Position numbers and translations under genes: made by a program. The notes under the pieces were generated by a model, which was not told where the DNA came from, ran no database searches, and saw only the letters and a list, made by a program, of their open reading frames with translations. Source: an uncultured Chloroflexia bacterium (lineage in GTDB: Bacteria; Chloroflexota; Chloroflexia; Thermomicrobiales; CFX8). Taken from it: 64,000 nucleotides of DNA. The first letter of the stretch is position 1. Each line of letters opens with the position of its first letter. Shown piece after piece: positions 50,411 through 55,821 of this stretch. The stretch is from the NCBI GenBank assembly GCA_963709995.1, contig CAVPYN010000011.1, forward strand, positions 119,604 through 183,603. The letters run 5' to 3'.

Positions 50411-51401
50411 ATGAAAGACCTGCTGCGAACTGCTGATCTGAGTGCCGCTGACTTCAAACTGCTGCTGGACCTGTCCGATGAACTGAAGCAGAATCCGCTC
50501 AAGCATCATGGATTCCTGACCGGTAAGACGGTCGTCCTCTACTTCGCCAAACATTCGACCCGCACCCGGCTCTCTTTTGAAACGGCCGTAGCGCGACTCG
50601 GCGGCATCCCGCTGACCGTCGGCTCCAACGAGCTCCAGGTTGGCCGTGGCGAGACGCTGGAGGACACCGCCAAGGTCGTCAGCCGCTACGCCGAAGCCTT
50701 CGTCATCCGCACCTTCGCCGACGACGACGTGAAGCTCGTCGCCGAAGCTTCGTCGATTCCAGTCATCAACGCGCTGACCGACGGCCACCATCCCTGCCAG
50801 AGCCTGGCCGACATCATGACCCTGCGCCAGCACTGGGGCACGCCTCACCGGCAAGAAGCTCGCCTACGTCGGCAACAGCAACAACGTCGCCCACAGCCTG
50901 CTCGAAGCCTGCGCGCTCTCCGGCGTCGATATCACCATCGCCAGCCCGGACGGCTACCAGCTTGATGCCGACATCATCGCCAACGCCAAGGCCATCGCGG
51001 CCGAGAATGGCGGCAAGGTCACGATGACCTCCGATCCACTGGAAGCGGTCAAGGGCGCAGACGCCGTCTACACCGACGCCTGGATCTCGATGGGCGATCC
51101 CGAGGCGATGTGGTCGTTGCAGGTTTCGGCGCTCACACCTTACCGGGTGACGGCAGAGATGATGAGCCACGCCGCCCCCGACGCGATCTTCATGCACTGC
51201 CTGCCCGCGCACCGTGGCGACGAAGTCGCGACCGAGGTCATCGACGGCCCCCAGTCCGTCGTCTTCGACCAGGCCGAGAACCGTCTCCACACCTCGCACG
51301 CGCTGCTCTATGCCCTGCTCAACGGCCTCGTGCATGGTTCCGGGGCGCAGGCGGAGTCAGCAACGGTGATCGAGAAGGCGGCCGAAACGACCAAGGTGTA
51401 G
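50411..51401 (+). pseudogene. argF: Ornithine carbamoyltransferase, one frame break near 50838-50846 (possibly an assembly error)
   Basis: STRTRLSFE, HPCQSLADIMT, then in the next frame LTGKKLAYVGNSNNVAHS...[13 protein letters not shown]...ENRLHTSHALL. Confidence 0.85.
51198..51401 (+). repeat. argF 3'-end repeat, copy 1 (inside the gene)
   Basis: Starts with the 26-nt core TGCCTGCCCGCGCACCGTGGCGACGA shared exactly with copies 2 and 3. Confidence 0.85.
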
Positions 51402-51782
51402 CGCCGGACGCCACAAAACAGGACACAGCGAGATGCGACCATTCCCGGTGTACTGCCGGGGTGGTTGCCTCTACTCCACCTCACCGGGTAGCGCGTTGCC
51501 TGGTGGCCAGTAGAGCTACCCGGCAACGGCGTATGTCGTTCTCCCCAGGTTCCCTCTGAAGCGCCAGAAGCTGGTGGACCGACGACGGCTCCTCATACCT
51601 TGCTCATCCGACGTTCAGCAGAGTCGCATGCCCATGAAGTCGGACATCTACGACCTCTGGTCGATGGAGCGTAGAACCGTCCCCCTATCCAGAGGCCGTC
51701 ATCTGCTTCCCGCTATACTCTCACTGAGAGTCAACCGGCGGTCACAGGGCAATGCACCAACGACACGGAGGTCTAAGACAAG

Positions 51783-52887
51783 ATGGTCGGCTTGCTCGAA
51801 ATCCGCCGGCGCAAGCTGCAATTCGCGCTGATTGCAGCCGTCTTCACCCTTGTCTCCTACCTGGTGCTGATGATCACCGGACTCGGCATCGGGCTGAACG
51901 AGCTCGCCGGCAGCGCCCTGCTCAACCTCGACGCAGACCGGCTGGCCTACTCCGACACGGCCGGGCTGAGCGTCATCCGCTCCGAGATGAGCCAGGAAAC
52001 TGTCGATCTGATCGCGGACGCAGAGGGCGTCGATGACTCCGCGCCGCTTGCCTATGTTGCGGCGAACTATGTCGATGCGGATGGTGAAATCGGATCGGCT
52101 GCCCTCCTCGGATACGATATCGGCACGATTGCCGAACCGGAAGTGACCGATGGCCGCGCCCTGACGCCAGATGACGCGTTTGGCATTCTGGCTGATACGC
52201 GTTTCCTGGGCGAATCGAATCTCTCAGTCGGCGATACCGTCACGATGCAGCTGCGCCTTGAGACTATCGAGATGGAGATCATTGGCGAGATCAACGAGGG
52301 CGCGTTCTTCTTCCAGCCGACGGTCTATCTGCTGCGCCCGACCCTGCTTGCATCTGAAGTACGGTGATTTACCAGCCGAGAGCCGACCGGCCGCCAGCAT
52401 CGTCCTGGTCAAAGGTGATCCTGCAAGCGACACCGGCGAAGGCTACGAGATCGTCAGCAAGCAGACGGCCTTCGACAACATCGAGGGCGTCCAGGGGCAG
52501 TCGGCGACGATCACCTCGCTTCAGGTCTTCGGCTATCTGATCGGCGCGATGGTGATTGGTGTCTTCTTCTACGTCCTGACGCTCCAGAAGGTCAGTCAGA
52601 TCGGGATGCTCAAGGCAATCGGCGCATCGAGCGGCTACATCCTGCGCCAGCTGCTGCTGCAGATCCTGCTCATCGCGGCAATCGGGCTGGTCATCTCCAT
52701 CGCGCTCGCCCTGCTCACCGACCGTGCCCTGCAGGGCGACGGCGAAGTCGTCCCGATTGGCTTCTCGACGTCGGCATTTGTCATCACCAGTGTCCTGCTC
52801 CTGGCAGCCTCGGCGTTGTCGGCGCTCTTCTCGGGCCGTCAGGTCCTACGCACCGATCCGATCATCGCGTTGGGACAGCAGCTCTAG
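51783..52887 (+). pseudogene. ABC transporter permease (MacB/FtsX-like), one frame break near 52340-52355
   Basis: ORF 51783..52367 holds the N-terminal TM helix and periplasmic domain. ORF 52171..52887 holds the FtsX-type C-terminal helices (KAIGASSGYILRQLLLQILLIA...). Confidence 0.7.
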
Positions 52888-53607
52888 TGGCGGAACGCAA
52901 AGCGCGAACCGAATTCGATGACATGCTGACCGTCACCGACCTGACCAAGACCTATCGCGATGGTGACCGGGAGGTCAAAGCCGTACGCGAGGCGAGCTTC
53001 ACCGCCGGGCACGGCGAGTTCGTCGCCATCGTCGGTCCGAGTGGTTCGGGCAAGACGACGATGCTGGCGATGCTCGGCGGATTGCTGACGCCAACCAGCG
53101 GCAGTATCACCCTCAATGGCCGCGAGATCACCGGGCTGAGCGCCCGGCAGCTCACGGAGTACCGCCGGCTATCGGTCGGCTACGTCTTCCAGGCCAACAA
53201 CCTGCTGGCGTTTCTCACGGCGCGGGAGAATCTGATGGTGATGTGTTCGATCGGCGCGTGCAAGGGCAATGGCCGGGAACGCGCCGACAGGCTCATCGAG
53301 GAACTCGGGCTAACCGAACGCGCCGATGCGGTGGCCACCCGGCTCAGCGGTGGTGAGCGTCAGCGCGTCGCGATCGGCAGGGCATTGATGAACGACCCCG
53401 AGATCGTCCTGGTCGATGAACCGACGGCCAACCTCGATTCCGTCCGTGGCCGCCAGGTCGTCGAGATGCTGATGCGCGAGACGAAGGACCGCAACAAGCT
53501 CGCCATCATGGTCACCCACGACCTCTGCCATGGCCGCCCTCGCCGACCACATCTACGAAATGCGCGATGGCCTCCTCGCGCCCTCGACTTCGTTACCGGT
53601 GTCGTAA
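52887..53607 (+). pseudogene. ABC transporter ATP-binding protein (MacB/LolD-like), one frame break near 53520-53530
   Basis: Walker A GPSGSGKTT, signature LSGGERQRVAIGRAL, Walker B VLVDEPTANLD. After the shift the tail reads AMAALADHIYEMRDGLLAPSTSLPVS and stops at 53605-53607. The rest of the listed 343-aa ORF is wrong-frame read-through. Confidence 0.75.
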
Positions 53608-53634
53608 CCCGCCGATGCACACCGTTCACTTGCG

Positions 53635-53928: not shown

Positions 53929-54544
53929 ATGCATGACACGATGACGAAAAAACCAGACCACGCCGAACTCTTCGATATGGCTACGGAGCAGCATGGGTAC
54001 TTCACCGCAGCGCAGGCTCGCTCCGCCGGCATCGGTTGGGATCTGCTTTCGTACCACACCAAGACCGGGCGTTTCATGCGGGTTGAGCATGGACTGTACC
54101 GTTTTCGCGACTTCCCGCCCGTACTGGCGCGAAGAAGTCGTGGCCGCCTGGCTCGCCGTCGGCAAAGACGTCGCCGTCGTTTCCCACGAAAGTGCCCTCG
54201 ACCTCTACGAGCTCAGTGATGTCATTCCCAATGCGGTCCACCTGACGATCCCGCGGTCGAAGCGCTACCTCCGACCGCCACCGGACGTCGCAGTCCATAC
54301 GACCACTGAGCCACTCCAACAGTCCGAAATCCTGAGCAAGGATGGGATGCGAGTCACGACGCCAACACGTTCGATCGTCGACGCTGCCGAGAGTGGAACG
54401 GCTATGGAACAGATCGAGATGGCGGTTGCGCAGGCGCTTGATCGCGGCCTCACGACCGAGCGCCGATTGCGCACGGCGGCGGCATCACGCAGCAAACGCG
54501 TTATCCAACTCATTGATCGCGCTATTGAGTTCGCACGCGCATGA
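53929..54544 (+). pseudogene. abiEi: AbiEi-family antitoxin, one frame break near 54113-54122
   Basis: FDMATEQHGYFTAAQARSAGIGWDLLSYHTKTGRFMRVEHGLYRFRDFPP, then in the next frame YWREEVVAAWLAVGKDVAVVSHESALDLYELSD.... Confidence 0.7.
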
Positions 54545-55422
54545 GATACACGACAGCCAGGGCCTTCCGTCAGGCGCTTGAACAGCGCTTGAAGACTGAG
54601 TCTGCACGTTCCGGTGTTCCTCTTCCTCGACTCCGCAAGCTTGTTGTGTTCGACCGTCTTCTGGCCCGACTCCTGATCGTCGCGCCAAATCGCTGGCTCC
54701 TCAAAGGAGCGCTGGCGCTTGACTATCGCATTGGCGCTGAGTATCGCACCACGCGCGATCTAGATCTGACCCGGCAAGATGACGAACCAGCGGCAACTGA
54801 TGATCTTCTGAGTGCCCAGGAGCTAGACCTCGGCGACTACTTCGGTTTTGAAATCGGACAAGCCTCCGCAGTAGGTCCCGGCATTGACGCGGTGCGCTAT
54901 AGCCTGACAGCACAACTTGCCGGCTACAGGTTCGAGACCGTTGGGCTAGACATTTCATTCAGTGATCAACGCTTCGCGACTCCCGAGATTCTGCAAGCAC
55001 CTGGCCTACTGCAGTTCGCCGAAATCGATCCCATTTCCGTGCCTGCTATTCCGATCGAGCAACACGTTGCGGAAAAGATTCACGCATACACGCGCGTTTA
55101 CCAGGGCCGGAGATCGAGCAGCCGAGCCAAGGATCTCGTCGATCTGGTGGTAATCCAGAATTCTATCCGATTGGAAGCGGGCCGACTCAGGGACGCATTG
55201 GAACTGACGTTTGCGGTCCGCGCATCACAAGTTCTACCGACGGAGCTACCACCACCACCTGATAATTGGGCGCGCAGCTATGCAACCCTGGCAAGAGAGG
55301 TCGGGATCGATCCAAGCCCAATCGAGGGACACCGGATTGCGGCCAAATTCCTTGATCCCGTCCTTGCTGAGCGAATCTCTCGTGATGTGTTCTGGATCCC
55401 ACGCGCTCGGCGCTGGGAGTAG
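54541..55422 (+). CDS. abiEii: AbiEii/AbiGii nucleotidyltransferase toxin
   Basis: ATGA overlap with abiEi. [11 protein letters not shown]...[25 protein letters not shown] motif. Confidence 0.75.
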
Positions 55423-55453
55423 CTGGCCTCTGAATCCTCAATACCCCTTGCAC

Positions 55454-55636
55454 TGCCTGCCCGCGCACCGTGGCGACGAAGTAGCAACCGAAGTCACCGA
55501 CGGCCCGCAATCCGTGGTCTTCAACTAGGCCGACAACCGCCTCCACATCTCGCACGCGCTGCTTTACGCCCTGCTCAATGGCCTCATGCACGGTTCCGGG
55601 CAGCCGACGGAAGCAACAGCTGTGAGCGAGACGGCC
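55454..55636 (+). repeat. argF 3'-end repeat, copy 3 (displaced, with in-frame TAG at 55526-55528)
   Basis: Encodes [26 protein letters not shown][29 protein letters not shown].... The core is at 55454-55479. Confidence 0.85.
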
Positions 55637-55821
55637 TACCCTCTGGATCTACAGCCCCGAAGCATGATCTGTCCCACCGATCCGAGTTAGTTCGGAGGAA
55701 TGAATTTGTGATACCACTTCAACGAATTGACCGAGTTCCGGATAATCGCGGCGTATCAGACACGGCGAATCCAAGCAAACCGCTATAGTCTATGCACGGA
55801 ATAATCGACAGACAGAGGTCC

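What the first reader, a model, noticed from the sequence alone, without database searches (positions are those of the whole stretch)
51198..55688. Three diverged direct copies of the argF 3' end delimit tandem, integrase-less cargo cassettes
The last roughly 200 nt of argF, from the [10 protein letters not shown] codons to the stop, occur three times in the same orientation: 51198-51401 (in the gene), 53635-53841 and 55454 to about 55636. All three share an identical 26-nt core, TGCCTGCCCGCGCACCGTGGCGACGA. Downstream of the core the copies are only partly alike (roughly three-quarters to four-fifths by eye). Copy 2 keeps an open frame to its own TAG. Copy 3 carries an in-frame TAG (55526-55528), as expected for a displaced, unselected remnant. 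Unrelated cargo sits between the copies: a MacB-type ABC permease and ATPase, then AbiEi/AbiEii. An AT-richer defence-like block follows copy 3. The cargo genes end within about 30 nt of the next core. This is the footprint of repeated insertion at the most conserved OTCase motif, by site-specific recombination or by RHS-like 3'-tip displacement through homologous recombination. Each incoming unit would bring a surrogate gene end and push the older end downstream. I see no integrase or recombinase anywhere in the window, so the units would need a trans-acting enzyme. That is conceptually like integron cassettes or cargo arrays at tRNA genes, but here at a protein-coding gene.
Basis: partly seen in the sequence, partly recalled or inferred. 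Interest (0 to 1): 0.85.

Follow-up and report, generated by a model that had tools for sequence, protein, structure and literature searches.

The report
Gene-end repeats flanking cassettes at argF
The end of the arginine-synthesis gene argF is repeated three times, with small transporter and phage-defence gene packets between the copies; this is the familiar scar of DNA inserting again and again at one gene end, unusual here only because no packet carries its own insertion enzyme.

Summary
Three direct copies of the last ~190-205 nt of argF lie at 51198-51401, 53635-53841 and 55449-55636. They are 78-85% identical (BLAST E 1e-38 to 1e-57) and share an exact 26-nt block. An FtsX/ABC pair and an AbiEi/AbiEii pair sit between them.

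Four other assemblies of related Thermomicrobiales carry arrays of the same kind between argF and a conserved BNR/sortilin gene, with different cargo. Four further relatives have no extra copy, so this is neither an artefact nor a fixed old duplication.

Differences between the copies are mostly synonymous (pN/pS 0.15-0.31). The copies were therefore working gene ends in different lineages before they were joined. E. coli icd/icdC, made by the e14 integrase, shows the same pattern.

Three independent junctions fall within about 6 nt of the 5' edge of the conserved block. This favours site-specific insertion of units that bring a substitute gene end.

No recombinase gene occurs in about ten cassettes from five genomes. 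Gene-conversion tracts and a tandem duplication show that homologous recombination also reshapes the arrays.

Best reading: an integrase-less accretion array, like cis-mobilizable elements. This is a new variant of a known kind. Whether the enzyme was lost or acts in trans is unresolved.

The parts
50411..51401 (+). argF (ornithine carbamoyltransferase), 329 aa after repair of a 1-nt frameshift at about 50840-50843. Target gene of the array.
   Evidence: Pfam OTCace_N E 5e-46 and OTCace E 3e-59. 98% identical to P0001 on both sides of the frameshift.
51198..51401 (+). Gene-end copy 1, in the gene. The 26-nt conserved block is 51198-51223 and the copy runs to the TAG stop.
   Evidence: As similar to relatives' in-gene ends as the rest of the gene is.
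51402..51782 (.). Non-coding leader of cassette 1. Not conserved with the leaders of the same cassette in L085 or L084.
   Evidence: No ORF with coding signal. No blastn match. No Rfam or tRNA hit.
51783..52887 (+). FtsX/MacB-type ABC permease (cassette 1), split by one apparent frameshift around 52170-52367.
   Evidence: Pfam FtsX E 2e-13. 75-80% nt identity to the permease next to argF in L085 and L084.
52887..53607 (+). ABC transporter ATPase (cassette 1). Frameshift near 53527. The true stop TAA at 53605-53607 is 27 nt before the next conserved block.
   Evidence: Pfam ABC_tran E 2e-35. End aligned with L085 and L084.
53635..53841 (+). Gene-end copy 2 (orphan). The conserved block is 53635-53660. 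It is open to its own TAG. Homology to argF starts about 2 nt before the block.
   Evidence: Versus copy 1: Sd 14, Nd 9, pN/pS 0.22. The ABC-end/orphan junction is shared with L085 14222.
53901..53938 (+). 38-nt imperfect palindrome with a TATAAT, found upstream of AbiEi. Probable AbiEi operator/promoter, not a recombination site.
   Evidence: Same motif upstream of AbiEi in L081 (12665) and L082 (13986).
53927..54544 (+). AbiEi antitoxin/regulator (cassette 2), with one apparent frameshift.
   Evidence: PADLOC AbiEi E 8e-41. Orthologous position has Pfam AbiEi_4 in L081, L082 and L087.
54541..55422 (+). AbiEii nucleotidyltransferase toxin (cassette 2), intact. The stop is 31 nt before the next conserved block.
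   Evidence: Pfam AbiEii E 2e-25. PADLOC E 2e-82. pS 0.76 and pN 0.28 versus the L081 copy, against 0.24 for argF.
55449..55636 (+). Gene-end copy 3 (orphan). The conserved block is 55454-55479 and there is an in-frame TAG at 55526-55528. Homology to argF starts 5 nt before the block.
   Evidence: Versus copy 1: Sd 11, Nd 6, pN/pS 0.19.
55637..58230 (+). AT-richer variable block with no gene-end repeat on its right. It holds a HEPN_AbiU2-like ORF (55826/55967-56416), unknown ORFs (56413-56772, 56800-57546) and frameshifted PDC-M57B-like fragments (57536-58173).
   Evidence: GC 0.52-0.56. Pfam 26.7 bits against a cut-off of 26.8. PADLOC PDC-M57B E 1e-10. Every relative has different DNA here.
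58266..61127 (+). BNR/sortilin-Vps10 repeat protein. Conserved right flank of the variable slot.
   Evidence: Pfam E 2e-34. 82-90% nt identity to L081, L082, L085 and L087, starting at 58230-58259.

Best explanation
The slot between argF and a BNR/sortilin gene in this Thermomicrobiales lineage is an accretion array.

**Proposed mechanism (inferred).** Small DNA units each carry a substitute argF 3' end of about 200 nt at their left edge, followed by one or two cargo genes. They have inserted repeatedly at one point in argF, the 5' edge of the block that encodes CLPAHRGD. Recombination there joins the body of argF to the incoming end, so the gene stays whole, and leaves the previous end as an orphan to the right of the cargo. 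Repetition gives end-cargo-end-cargo-end.

**What is shown.**
- The repeats exist, and their content varies between relatives.
- The ends differ in a mostly synonymous way, so they come from different lineages.
- End and cargo are linked.
- Junctions cluster at the block edge.
- No recombinase gene lies in any cassette.
- Gene conversion and a tandem duplication have occurred between ends.

**What is inferred.**
- Insertion is site-specific, by a simple-site recombinase that needs no more than about 35 bp.
- That recombinase was either lost from every unit (decayed elements, as in cis-mobilizable elements) or is encoded elsewhere and acts in trans.
- RecA-type recombination between the 200-300-nt ends then shuffles, duplicates, converts and deletes units.
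For: 1. **Repeats.** Three copies are highly significant, and the in-gene copy is complete.
2. **Independent arrays.** Independent assemblies carry arrays between the same flanks with other cargo.
   - L081: unknown 64+359 aa | truncated end | AbiE | end.
   - L085: FtsX fragment | end | FtsX+ABC | end.
   - L087: S9 peptidase and others | end | AbiEi.
   - JGI contig 3300056388: end | AbiEi.
   - L082, L083/84, L086 and L105-107 have no orphan.
3. **Synonymous divergence.** Orphan versus resident end gives pS 0.23-0.38, the same as argF between species of the clade (0.24-0.43), with pN/pS 0.15-0.31. In-situ duplication with neutral decay predicts about 0.5: Nd of 17-21 expected against 6-9 observed.
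4. **Calibration.** E. coli icd versus icdC, made by the e14 integrase, shows a 165-nt repeat, 153/165 identical, Sd 10, Nd 2, pS 0.29, a sharp 5' boundary and homology to the stop codon. This is the same signature.
5. **Junction clustering.** Three independent junctions lie within about 6 nt.
   - ABC-end | copy 2 at -2, shared with L085.
   - AbiEii-end | copy 3 at -5.
   - In L087, a switch from 0 mismatches in 50 nt to 12 in 44 nt at -4.
   - Copies 2 and 3 share CTTGC just left of the block, where the gene has CATGC.
6. **End-cargo linkage.** Window copy 2 plus AbiEi is collinear with the L087 orphan plus AbiEi (830 nt) and with the L081 orphan plus an AbiEi-operator remnant.
7. **Precedent.** Tandem target-end repeats with integrase-less units are documented in the same phylum and in streptococci (PMC3146451, PMC5704250).
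Against: - No recombinase domain was found in any ORF of about ten cassettes from five genomes, nor a remnant of one. In Dehalococcoides about half the units keep their integration module.
- Units are only 1.6-2.4 kb, and cargo stops 12-31 nt from the next end. This leaves no room for arm-type sites.
- No motif is conserved to the left of the junctions beyond about 7 nt.
- Some orphans start further upstream (-31, -33, -40, about -93 to -113) and one is truncated at +110.
- Exact identity of the 26-mer holds only in this genome.
- The in-gene end looks vertical, not recently imported.
- In L083/84 the same ABC pair follows argF with no orphan after it. It could simply be a native neighbour there.
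- All ends are clade-like (pS about 0.3-0.4) while the AbiE cargo is far more diverged (pS 0.76). This would also fit exchange limited by homology.
Confidence: 0.55

Rival explanations
1. **Homologous recombination only.** One or a few illegitimate events first created an end-cargo-end unit. After that, the 200-300-nt ends serve as portable homology arms. RecA loops a unit out as a circle or exchanges it by double crossover between related strains, and single crossover into a recipient's argF end re-creates the duplication. No dedicated recombinase is involved. Junction switch points cluster at the conserved block because it is the longest run of identity between diverged argF genes.
For: - No recombinase in any cassette.
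- Clear conversion or crossover tracts lie at different places: 82 identical nt at +23 to +105 in L081, and 50 nt at -54 to -4 in L087.
- L085 has a 97.5%-identical 569-nt tandem duplication with a period of 1.2 kb.
- Orphan left boundaries vary.
- The ends are all of clade type (pS 0.3-0.4) while the cargo is much more diverged.
- L087's orphan is closer to L085's gene (pS 0.20) than to its own (0.38).
- The ABC pair is a plain neighbour of argF in L083/84.
- The block right of the last end also varies, although no repeat bounds it.
Against: - Two orphans with unrelated left neighbours (ABC end, AbiEii end) begin within 3 nt of each other and share CTTGC. Independent illegitimate joins should scatter.
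- The 5' extensions seen in other genomes are 93-100% like the resident gene, so they look secondary and not original boundaries.
- Four of six junctions sit 12-31 nt after an intact cargo stop codon. Random breakpoints would mostly truncate genes.
- Each new junction type still needs an unexplained founding event.
Confidence: 0.27
2. **Live, integron-like or dif-module-like cassette system.** The units never had an integrase. A recombinase encoded elsewhere in the genome, dedicated or a host Xer-type enzyme, excises and inserts them at the argF block.
For: - 0 of about 10 cassettes have a recombinase.
- Cassette sizes of 1.6-2.4 kb, with cargo abutting the next site, match the compact architecture of integron cassettes and Acinetobacter dif modules (PMC6449649).
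- Arrays differ completely between genomes only pS 0.24 apart.
- Junctions cluster at one point.
Against: - Only ±10 kb of each relative was visible, so no candidate enzyme has been seen.
- The site has no dyad symmetry or hairpin (z +0.3 to +1.2) and nothing like a dif or attC site.
- The orphans carry inactivating changes and 3-4 mismatches in the block in three genomes. This suggests fossil sites rather than live ones.
- No circular or alternative forms are available.
Confidence: 0.13
3. **In-situ segmental duplication or assembly chimera.** The extra ends are old local duplications of the resident gene end, or artefacts of collapsing strain variants in a noisy long-read assembly.
For: - The assembly is error-prone, with about one frameshift per 1-1.5 kb.
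- L085 does contain a near-identical local duplication.
- The ABC-end/orphan junction is shared by the window and L085. Some units are therefore inherited rather than newly inserted.
Against: - The same architecture appears in four other independent assemblies, including a JGI contig.
- Contig 3686 of Logan run ERR12037370, which carries the identical AbiEii, ends 56 nt after its stop, inside the repeat.
- Unrelated cargo separates the copies.
- pN/pS of 0.15-0.31 rejects duplication followed by neutral decay: Nd 6-9 observed against 17-21 expected.
- The copies are as far from the resident gene as from other species' genes.
Confidence: 0.04

Closest known systems
e14 / phage 21 integration into icd of E. 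coli (substitute 3' end plus displaced icdC pseudo-end)
   Same: - A protein-coding gene is kept intact by an element-borne copy of its last 165 nt.
- The old end is left as an orphan at the far side of the insert.
- The copies differ mostly at synonymous sites: 153/165 identical, Sd 10, Nd 2.
- The 5' boundary is sharp and homology runs to the stop codon.
- Defence cargo (mcrA, lit) lies in the insert.
   Different: - e14 is a 15-kb prophage remnant with its own integrase and excisionase (intE, xisE), present as a single unit.
- Here the units are 1.6-2.4 kb, tandem, and none has a recombinase.
Cis-mobilizable elements (CIMEs) and tandem accretion, e.g. ICESt1-related elements at the 3' end of fda in Streptococcus thermophilus (reviewed in PMC5704250)
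   Same: [quoted passage not shown]
- Integration and transfer genes are lacking.
- Units are arranged in tandem by successive insertion into a site that retains the gene end.
   Different: - CIMEs are defined by relation to a cognate ICE/IME whose integrase can move them. No such element or integrase was seen in five genomes.
- The repeats here are about 200 nt and 78-92% identical, rather than short exact att sites.
- The units here are much smaller.
Dehalococcoides ssrA-specific genomic islands (PMC3146451)
   Same: - Same phylum.
- Multiple tandem islands downstream of a single-copy gene, each bounded by a direct repeat of its 3' end.
- Content varies between strains.
- 15 of the islands lack an integration module and were proposed to be cis-mobilizable.
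   Different: - The target there is the tmRNA gene, with a 20-bp repeat.
- 16 islands carry a conserved serine-recombinase module (DsiB/DsiA) next to attL, and a conserved 15-bp motif adjoins each repeat.
- Here there is no module and no conserved adjoining motif.
Integron cassettes and Acinetobacter pdif modules (PMC6449649, PMC7399989)
   Same: - Compact one- or two-gene units without their own recombinase.
- Arranged in arrays.
- Bounded by a recurring site.
- Toxin-antitoxin and adaptive cargo.
   Different: - No intI/attI/attC.
- The site region does not fold.
- No 28-bp XerC/XerD-type dyad.
- The recurring site here is a coding gene end whose role is to restore the gene.
Rhs/CdiA orphan C-terminal tips
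   Same: Displaced 3' fragments of a gene accumulate downstream in the same orientation. Homologous recombination with the main gene is thought to swap them.
   Different: - Those tips are variable toxin domains with cognate immunity genes.
- Here the ends are homologous copies of a housekeeping enzyme's C-terminus, and the cargo is unrelated to them.
- A real RHS locus lies elsewhere in this window (26.5-33.6 kb) and has nothing to do with argF.

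Membership tests
Integrative element at a gene 3' end (e14/icd type) | Direct repeats of the target gene's 3' end bound the insert, and the in-gene copy is complete. | tested here: met
   Three copies, E 1e-38 to 1e-57. Copy 1 runs to the argF stop.
Integrative element at a gene 3' end (e14/icd type) | Copies differ as two functional alleles do (mostly synonymous), with a sharp 5' boundary at the crossover. | tested here: met
   pN/pS 0.19-0.22 in the window against 0.05 for icd/icdC. Boundaries at -2 and -5 in the window. Boundaries are less uniform in relatives.
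Integrative element at a gene 3' end (e14/icd type) | A tyrosine or serine integrase is encoded inside the element. | tested here: not met
   No recombinase Pfam or PADLOC hit in any ORF of the window array, or of the arrays in L081, L082 and L087. Precomputed Pfam lists show none in L085.
Integrative element at a gene 3' end (e14/icd type) | Excision to a circle and an empty attB occur in the population. | not testable with these tools
   No reads are available. Unoccupied argF sites exist in relatives L086 and L105-107.
Cis-mobilizable element (CIME) / accretion array | Flanked by att-like repeats and lacking integration and transfer genes. | tested here: met
Cis-mobilizable element (CIME) / accretion array | A related integrase-bearing element uses the same site and can mobilise it. 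| tested here: inconclusive
   - None within ±10 kb in seven relatives' loci.
- None in 80 GTDB argF loci.
- None in viral contigs.
- Metagenome scans found no clade member.
- Whole genomes could not be searched.
Integron | intI integrase with attI next to the array. | tested here: not met
   Upstream of argF lie an M20 peptidase, a macro-domain protein and a lyase. No integrase.
Integron | attC sites: imperfect palindromes that fold as single strands. | tested here: not met
   Core regions fold no better than shuffles, z +0.28 to +1.20, on either strand.
Xer-dependent modules (pdif / IMEX) | A 28-bp site with two inverted 11-bp arms around a 6-bp spacer. | tested here: not met
   No dyad symmetry in the -10 to +30 region. 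No comparison with the organism's own dif site was possible.
Rhs/CdiA orphan-tip array | Variable toxic C-terminal tip followed by a cognate immunity gene. | tested here: not met
   The tails are homologous OTCase C-termini, 74-76% aa identity. The cargo is an ABC transporter and AbiE.
AbiE type IV toxin-antitoxin / abortive-infection system (cargo) | AbiEi (wHTH antitoxin) followed by an AbiEii nucleotidyltransferase, with an upstream inverted-repeat operator. | tested here: met
   PADLOC E 8e-41 and 2e-82. The 38-nt palindrome is conserved upstream of AbiEi in three genomes. Function was not tested.

The most novel reading that the evidence does not exclude
The argF end is the docking site of a cassette system that has no recombinase of its own. 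One- or two-gene packets each carry a substitute gene end. They would be excised and inserted at a roughly 35-bp site in a housekeeping gene by an enzyme encoded elsewhere in the genome, or purely by the host's homologous recombination using the gene ends as portable arms. This would be a protein-gene counterpart of integron cassettes or dif modules that stocks a defence hotspot.
Probability: 0.2. Interest if true: 0.8.

Novelty: new variant of a known kind. Interest (0 to 1): 0.42.

Why it matters
**If it is decayed site-specific insertion.**
- It adds argF as an attachment site and Thermomicrobiales as a host group for gene-end-targeting elements.
- It gives a clean natural example of a housekeeping gene end being used to build a small defence and transport hotspot.

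**The more interesting possibility.** Tiny cargo packets may be moved without carrying any recombinase, with a 200-nt substitute gene end as their only 'mobility' feature.
- That would show a route for gene flow that standard island finders miss, because they look for integrases.
- It would explain how defence genes such as AbiE turn over at a fixed chromosomal slot.

**A reusable test.** Comparing synonymous and non-synonymous differences between a gene end and its orphan copies separates imported ends from local duplications. The test is calibrated here on E. coli icd/icdC.

Tried and rejected
1. **Fourth copy.** No fourth gene-end copy bounds the AT-rich block, by blastn or tblastn.
2. **GTDB genomes.** The scan with argF found a nearest representative only 67% identical, and none of 80 loci has an extra end.
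3. **Viral contigs.**
   - The exact 26-mer gave 0 hits.
   - The tail protein gave one hit, which is a full-length argF.
4. **Metagenome scans.** The first found 37 pattern hits, none confirmed. The second, with a degenerate DNA pattern, gave 11 loci, none from this clade.
5. **Short OTCase ORFs in the protein database.** P0175 and P0148 on long contigs are frameshifted argF in noisy long-read assemblies. P0132 is the end of a degraded arcB. Orphan argF ends are therefore not shown to be common outside this clade.
6. **Phage records with a tail match.** They are host DNA or full-length OTCase genes.
7. **The 38-nt palindrome after the ends.** It was considered as a recombination site and rejected. 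It sits upstream of every AbiEi, including one without any gene end nearby (L082), so it is the AbiE operator.
8. **Hidden recombinases.** Unknown cassette ORFs gave no hits in Pfam at E ≤ 1 or in PADLOC.
9. **Conserved arm motif left of the junctions.** None was found, apart from the shared AbiEii 3' end.
10. **attC-like folding.** None.
11. **Literature.** No paper was found describing argF as an attachment site.

Full report
**1. What is in the window**

The window has 60% G+C. argF hits place it in Thermomicrobiales, Chloroflexota.

argF runs from 50411 to 51401. It has both OTCase domains. A 1-nt frameshift lies near 50840-50843. The protein is 98% identical to a relative on both sides of that point.

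Most genes in the window show similar frameshifts. These include the M20 peptidase, the FtsX permease, the ABC ATPase, AbiEi and the CtaA/CtaB-like genes. Sister assemblies from the same projects behave the same way. I therefore treat the frameshifts as sequencing noise.

The last roughly 200 nt of argF recur at 53635-53841 and 55449-55636, in the same orientation.
- Identities are 80% and 85% to the in-gene copy and 78% to each other (E 7e-44, 1e-57 and 1e-39).
- There is no fourth copy, by DNA or protein search.
- All three share the exact 26-mer TGCCTGCCCGCGCACCGTGGCGACGA.
- Copies 1 and 3 are identical over 34 nt.
- The 26-mer is not universal. None of 80 diverse argF loci has it exactly (mode 4 mismatches), and clade relatives differ at 0-4 positions.
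- Copy 2 is open to its own TAG. Copy 3 has the in-frame TAG at 55526-55528.

Between the copies lie two gene pairs.
- An FtsX-type permease plus an ABC ATPase, whose stop is 27 nt before the next block.
- AbiEi plus AbiEii, whose stop is 31 nt before the next block.

After copy 3 comes a 2.6-kb AT-richer stretch. It holds a marginal HEPN_AbiU2 match, unknown ORFs and fragments of a PDC-M57B-like gene. It ends at a BNR/sortilin gene.

**2. Relatives show a variable slot, not an artefact and not a fixed duplication**

A protein search found argF relatives of 80-98% identity. Their contigs were fetched. The left flank (dioxygenase, lyase, macro-domain genes) and the right flank (BNR gene, 82-90% nt) are conserved. 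The DNA between argF and the BNR gene differs in every genome.

| Locus | argF identity to window | Content between argF and the BNR gene |
|---|---|---|
| L081 | 98% aa | two unknown ORFs, a truncated gene end, AbiEi/AbiEii, a full orphan end, an AbiEi-operator remnant |
| L085 | 85% aa | an FtsX fragment, an orphan end, FtsX+ABC, an orphan end |
| L087 | 92% aa | S9 peptidase and small ORFs, an orphan end, AbiEi, an HD protein |
| JGI contig 3300056388 | not determined | unknown ORFs, an orphan end, AbiEi |
| L082, L083/84, L086, L105-107 | 80-90% aa | no orphan end |

In L105-107, which are short-read assemblies, housekeeping genes follow argF directly.

The same architecture is therefore seen in five independent assemblies. 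A short-read contig carrying the identical AbiEii breaks inside the repeat. Assembly chimerism is excluded for practical purposes.

**3. The ends were functional ends of different lineages**

I counted synonymous and non-synonymous differences over the 47 codons from the block onward.
- Each orphan differs from the resident in-gene end at pS 0.23-0.38. This is the same as argF between species of this clade (0.24-0.43 for the gene body).
- pN is only 0.06-0.09, giving pN/pS of 0.15-0.31.
- A local duplication whose orphan decays neutrally from the start predicts pN of about half of pS. That means 17-21 non-synonymous differences where 6-9 are seen.
- The copies were therefore already diverged, selected gene ends when they were brought together. 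The orphans have since picked up a few damaging changes, such as the stop codon in copy 3 and S→R and Q→H in copy 2.

As a calibration I applied the same count to E. coli K-12 icd and its icdC pseudo-end. These were produced by the e14 integrase.
- The repeat is 165 nt, with 153 identical positions.
- Sd is 10 and Nd is 2, giving pS 0.29.
- Homology starts abruptly and runs to the stop codon.

The window copies have the same signature.

**4. Which way the units are built**

The orphan end is linked to the cargo on its right.
- Window copy 2 plus AbiEi is collinear over 830 nt with the L087 orphan plus AbiEi.
- Over 340 nt it is collinear with the L081 orphan plus a remnant of the AbiEi operator.
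- The JGI contig has the same order.

This fits units of the form [substitute end - cargo].

The AbiE modules themselves are not vertical orthologues. AbiEii of the window and of L081 differ at pS 0.76 and pN 0.28, while the host argF bodies differ at pS 0.24.

The 38-nt palindrome that follows several ends is the AbiEi operator and not a recombination site. It precedes AbiEi even in L082, where no gene end is near.

**5. Site-specific or homologous?**

Evidence for a fixed site:
- Two orphans with unrelated left neighbours begin 2 and 5 nt before the block. One neighbour is the ABC ATPase end and the other is the AbiEii end.
- Both orphans read CTTGC there, where the gene reads CATGC.
- The ABC/orphan junction is shared with L085.
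- In L087 the orphan is identical to the resident gene for 50 nt up to position -4. It then shows 12 mismatches in the next 44 nt.
- These are three independent junctions or switch points within about 6 nt.

In L081, L085 and L087 the orphans extend 31, 40 and about 93-113 nt upstream of the block. These extensions are 93-100% like the resident gene and much closer to it than the ends are. I read them as secondary copying from the gene by conversion or repair synthesis, not as original boundaries. That step is inference.

Evidence against a classical integrase element:
- No recombinase domain occurs in any ORF of about ten cassettes in five genomes.
- The only 'integrase core' protein in the window is an IS3 transposase, 20 kb away in an RHS locus.
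- Units are 1.6-2.4 kb, and cargo abuts the next end.
- Nothing is conserved to the left of the junctions beyond about 7 nt.
- The site region has no dyad or hairpin.

Homologous recombination clearly acts on the ends.
- L081 has an 82-nt identical tract at +23 to +105 although its block has 4 mismatches.
- L087 has the 50-nt tract.
- L085 has a 97.5%-identical 569-nt tandem duplication.

Other complicating points:
- The in-gene ends look vertically inherited.
- All ends are of clade type while the cargo is not.
- The ABC pair follows argF in L083/84 with no orphan after it.

A purely homology-driven history therefore remains a serious rival.

**6. Verdict on mechanism**

I commit to site-specific insertion, at the 5' edge of the CLPAHRGD-coding block, of small units that bring a substitute gene end. 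The recombinase is not encoded in the units. The array has since been remodelled by homologous recombination.

| Explanation | Confidence |
|---|---|
| Site-specific insertion, remodelled by homologous recombination | about 0.55 |
| Homologous recombination only | about 0.27 |
| Live cassette system served by a trans-acting enzyme | about 0.13 |
| In-situ duplication or assembly artefact | about 0.04 |

Whether the enzyme was lost from every unit or acts in trans cannot be decided from ±10 kb of each relative.

**7. Comparison with what is known**

- The structure works like e14/phage 21 at icd, with a substitute end and a displaced pseudo-end.
- It also works like tandem accretion of integrative elements, with integrase-less members known as cis-mobilizable elements (PMC5704250).
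- The nearest taxonomic precedent is the ssrA islands of Dehalococcoides. These are tandem, strain-variable, bounded by repeats of the gene end, and about half lack an integration module (PMC3146451).
- It fails the membership test for a self-sufficient integrative element because there is no integrase.
- It fails the tests for integrons (no intI, no folding attC), Xer modules (no dyad site) and Rhs/CdiA tip arrays.
- It meets the structural definition of cis-mobilizable elements, but the cognate integrase-bearing element is missing.
- A literature search found no description of argF as an attachment site.
- Searches of viral contigs, phage records, GTDB genomes and metagenomes found no element carrying an argF end next to a recombinase.

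**8. Novelty and score**

The kind is known.

Three things are unusual:
- The complete absence of recombinase genes across about ten units in five genomes.
- The very small, tightly packed units.
- The long, diverged substitute ends, which double as recombination arms.

I rate it a new variant of a known kind, with interest 0.42. There is a 0.2 chance that it is a recombinase-free or trans-served cassette system. That would deserve about 0.8.

Noticed in passing
window 26547-33641 (- strand): A polymorphic-toxin locus. It holds an RHS-repeat protein (26547-29948, 18 repeats), an IS3-family transposase (rve + HTH_21, 30229-30924) and a 444-aa ORF ending in an Ntox17 toxin domain (32310-33641). 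GC drops to 0.53-0.56 at 31-33 kb. The IS appears to sit between the two toxin genes.
   Followed up: partly
window 10861-13574 (- strand): Three tandem paralogues of Peptidase_M55 (D-aminopeptidase), each about 285-315 aa, E 5e-84 to 2e-88.
   Followed up: no
whole window, e.g. 14225-16057, 48805-49798, 50840-50843, 52170-52367, about 53527, about 54100-54200: There is about one apparent frameshift per 1-1.5 kb in otherwise conserved genes. Examples are the CtaA/CtaB-like genes, the M20 peptidase, argF, FtsX, the ABC ATPase and AbiEi. This looks like a lightly polished long-read assembly. In sister assemblies, short 'OTCase' ORFs are simply frameshifted argF.
   Followed up: partly
L085 10747-11315 and 11960-12525: A 569-nt direct duplication, 97.5% identical, with a period of about 1.2 kb. 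It covers the argF end plus 260 nt downstream and the start of the FtsX gene. All three gene ends in this genome stop being homologous at the same point (after LLYA), and argF there has an aberrant C-terminus.
   Followed up: partly
window 53901-53938; L081 11093-11130, 12665-12702, 14497-14534; L082 13986-14023: A 38-nt imperfect palindrome containing TATAAT lies upstream of every AbiEi and is a probable operator. In L081 a close copy also precedes an unrelated 64-aa + 359-aa gene pair with no family match. That pair may be another module under AbiEi-type control.
   Followed up: partly
L087 11221-12759 (- strand); window 57536-58173: Other defence-type genes occupy the same slot in relatives. 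L087 has an HD-domain protein with a weak dGTPase match. The window has frameshifted fragments of a PDC-M57B-like candidate defence gene. The argF-BNR slot behaves as a defence hotspot.
   Followed up: no
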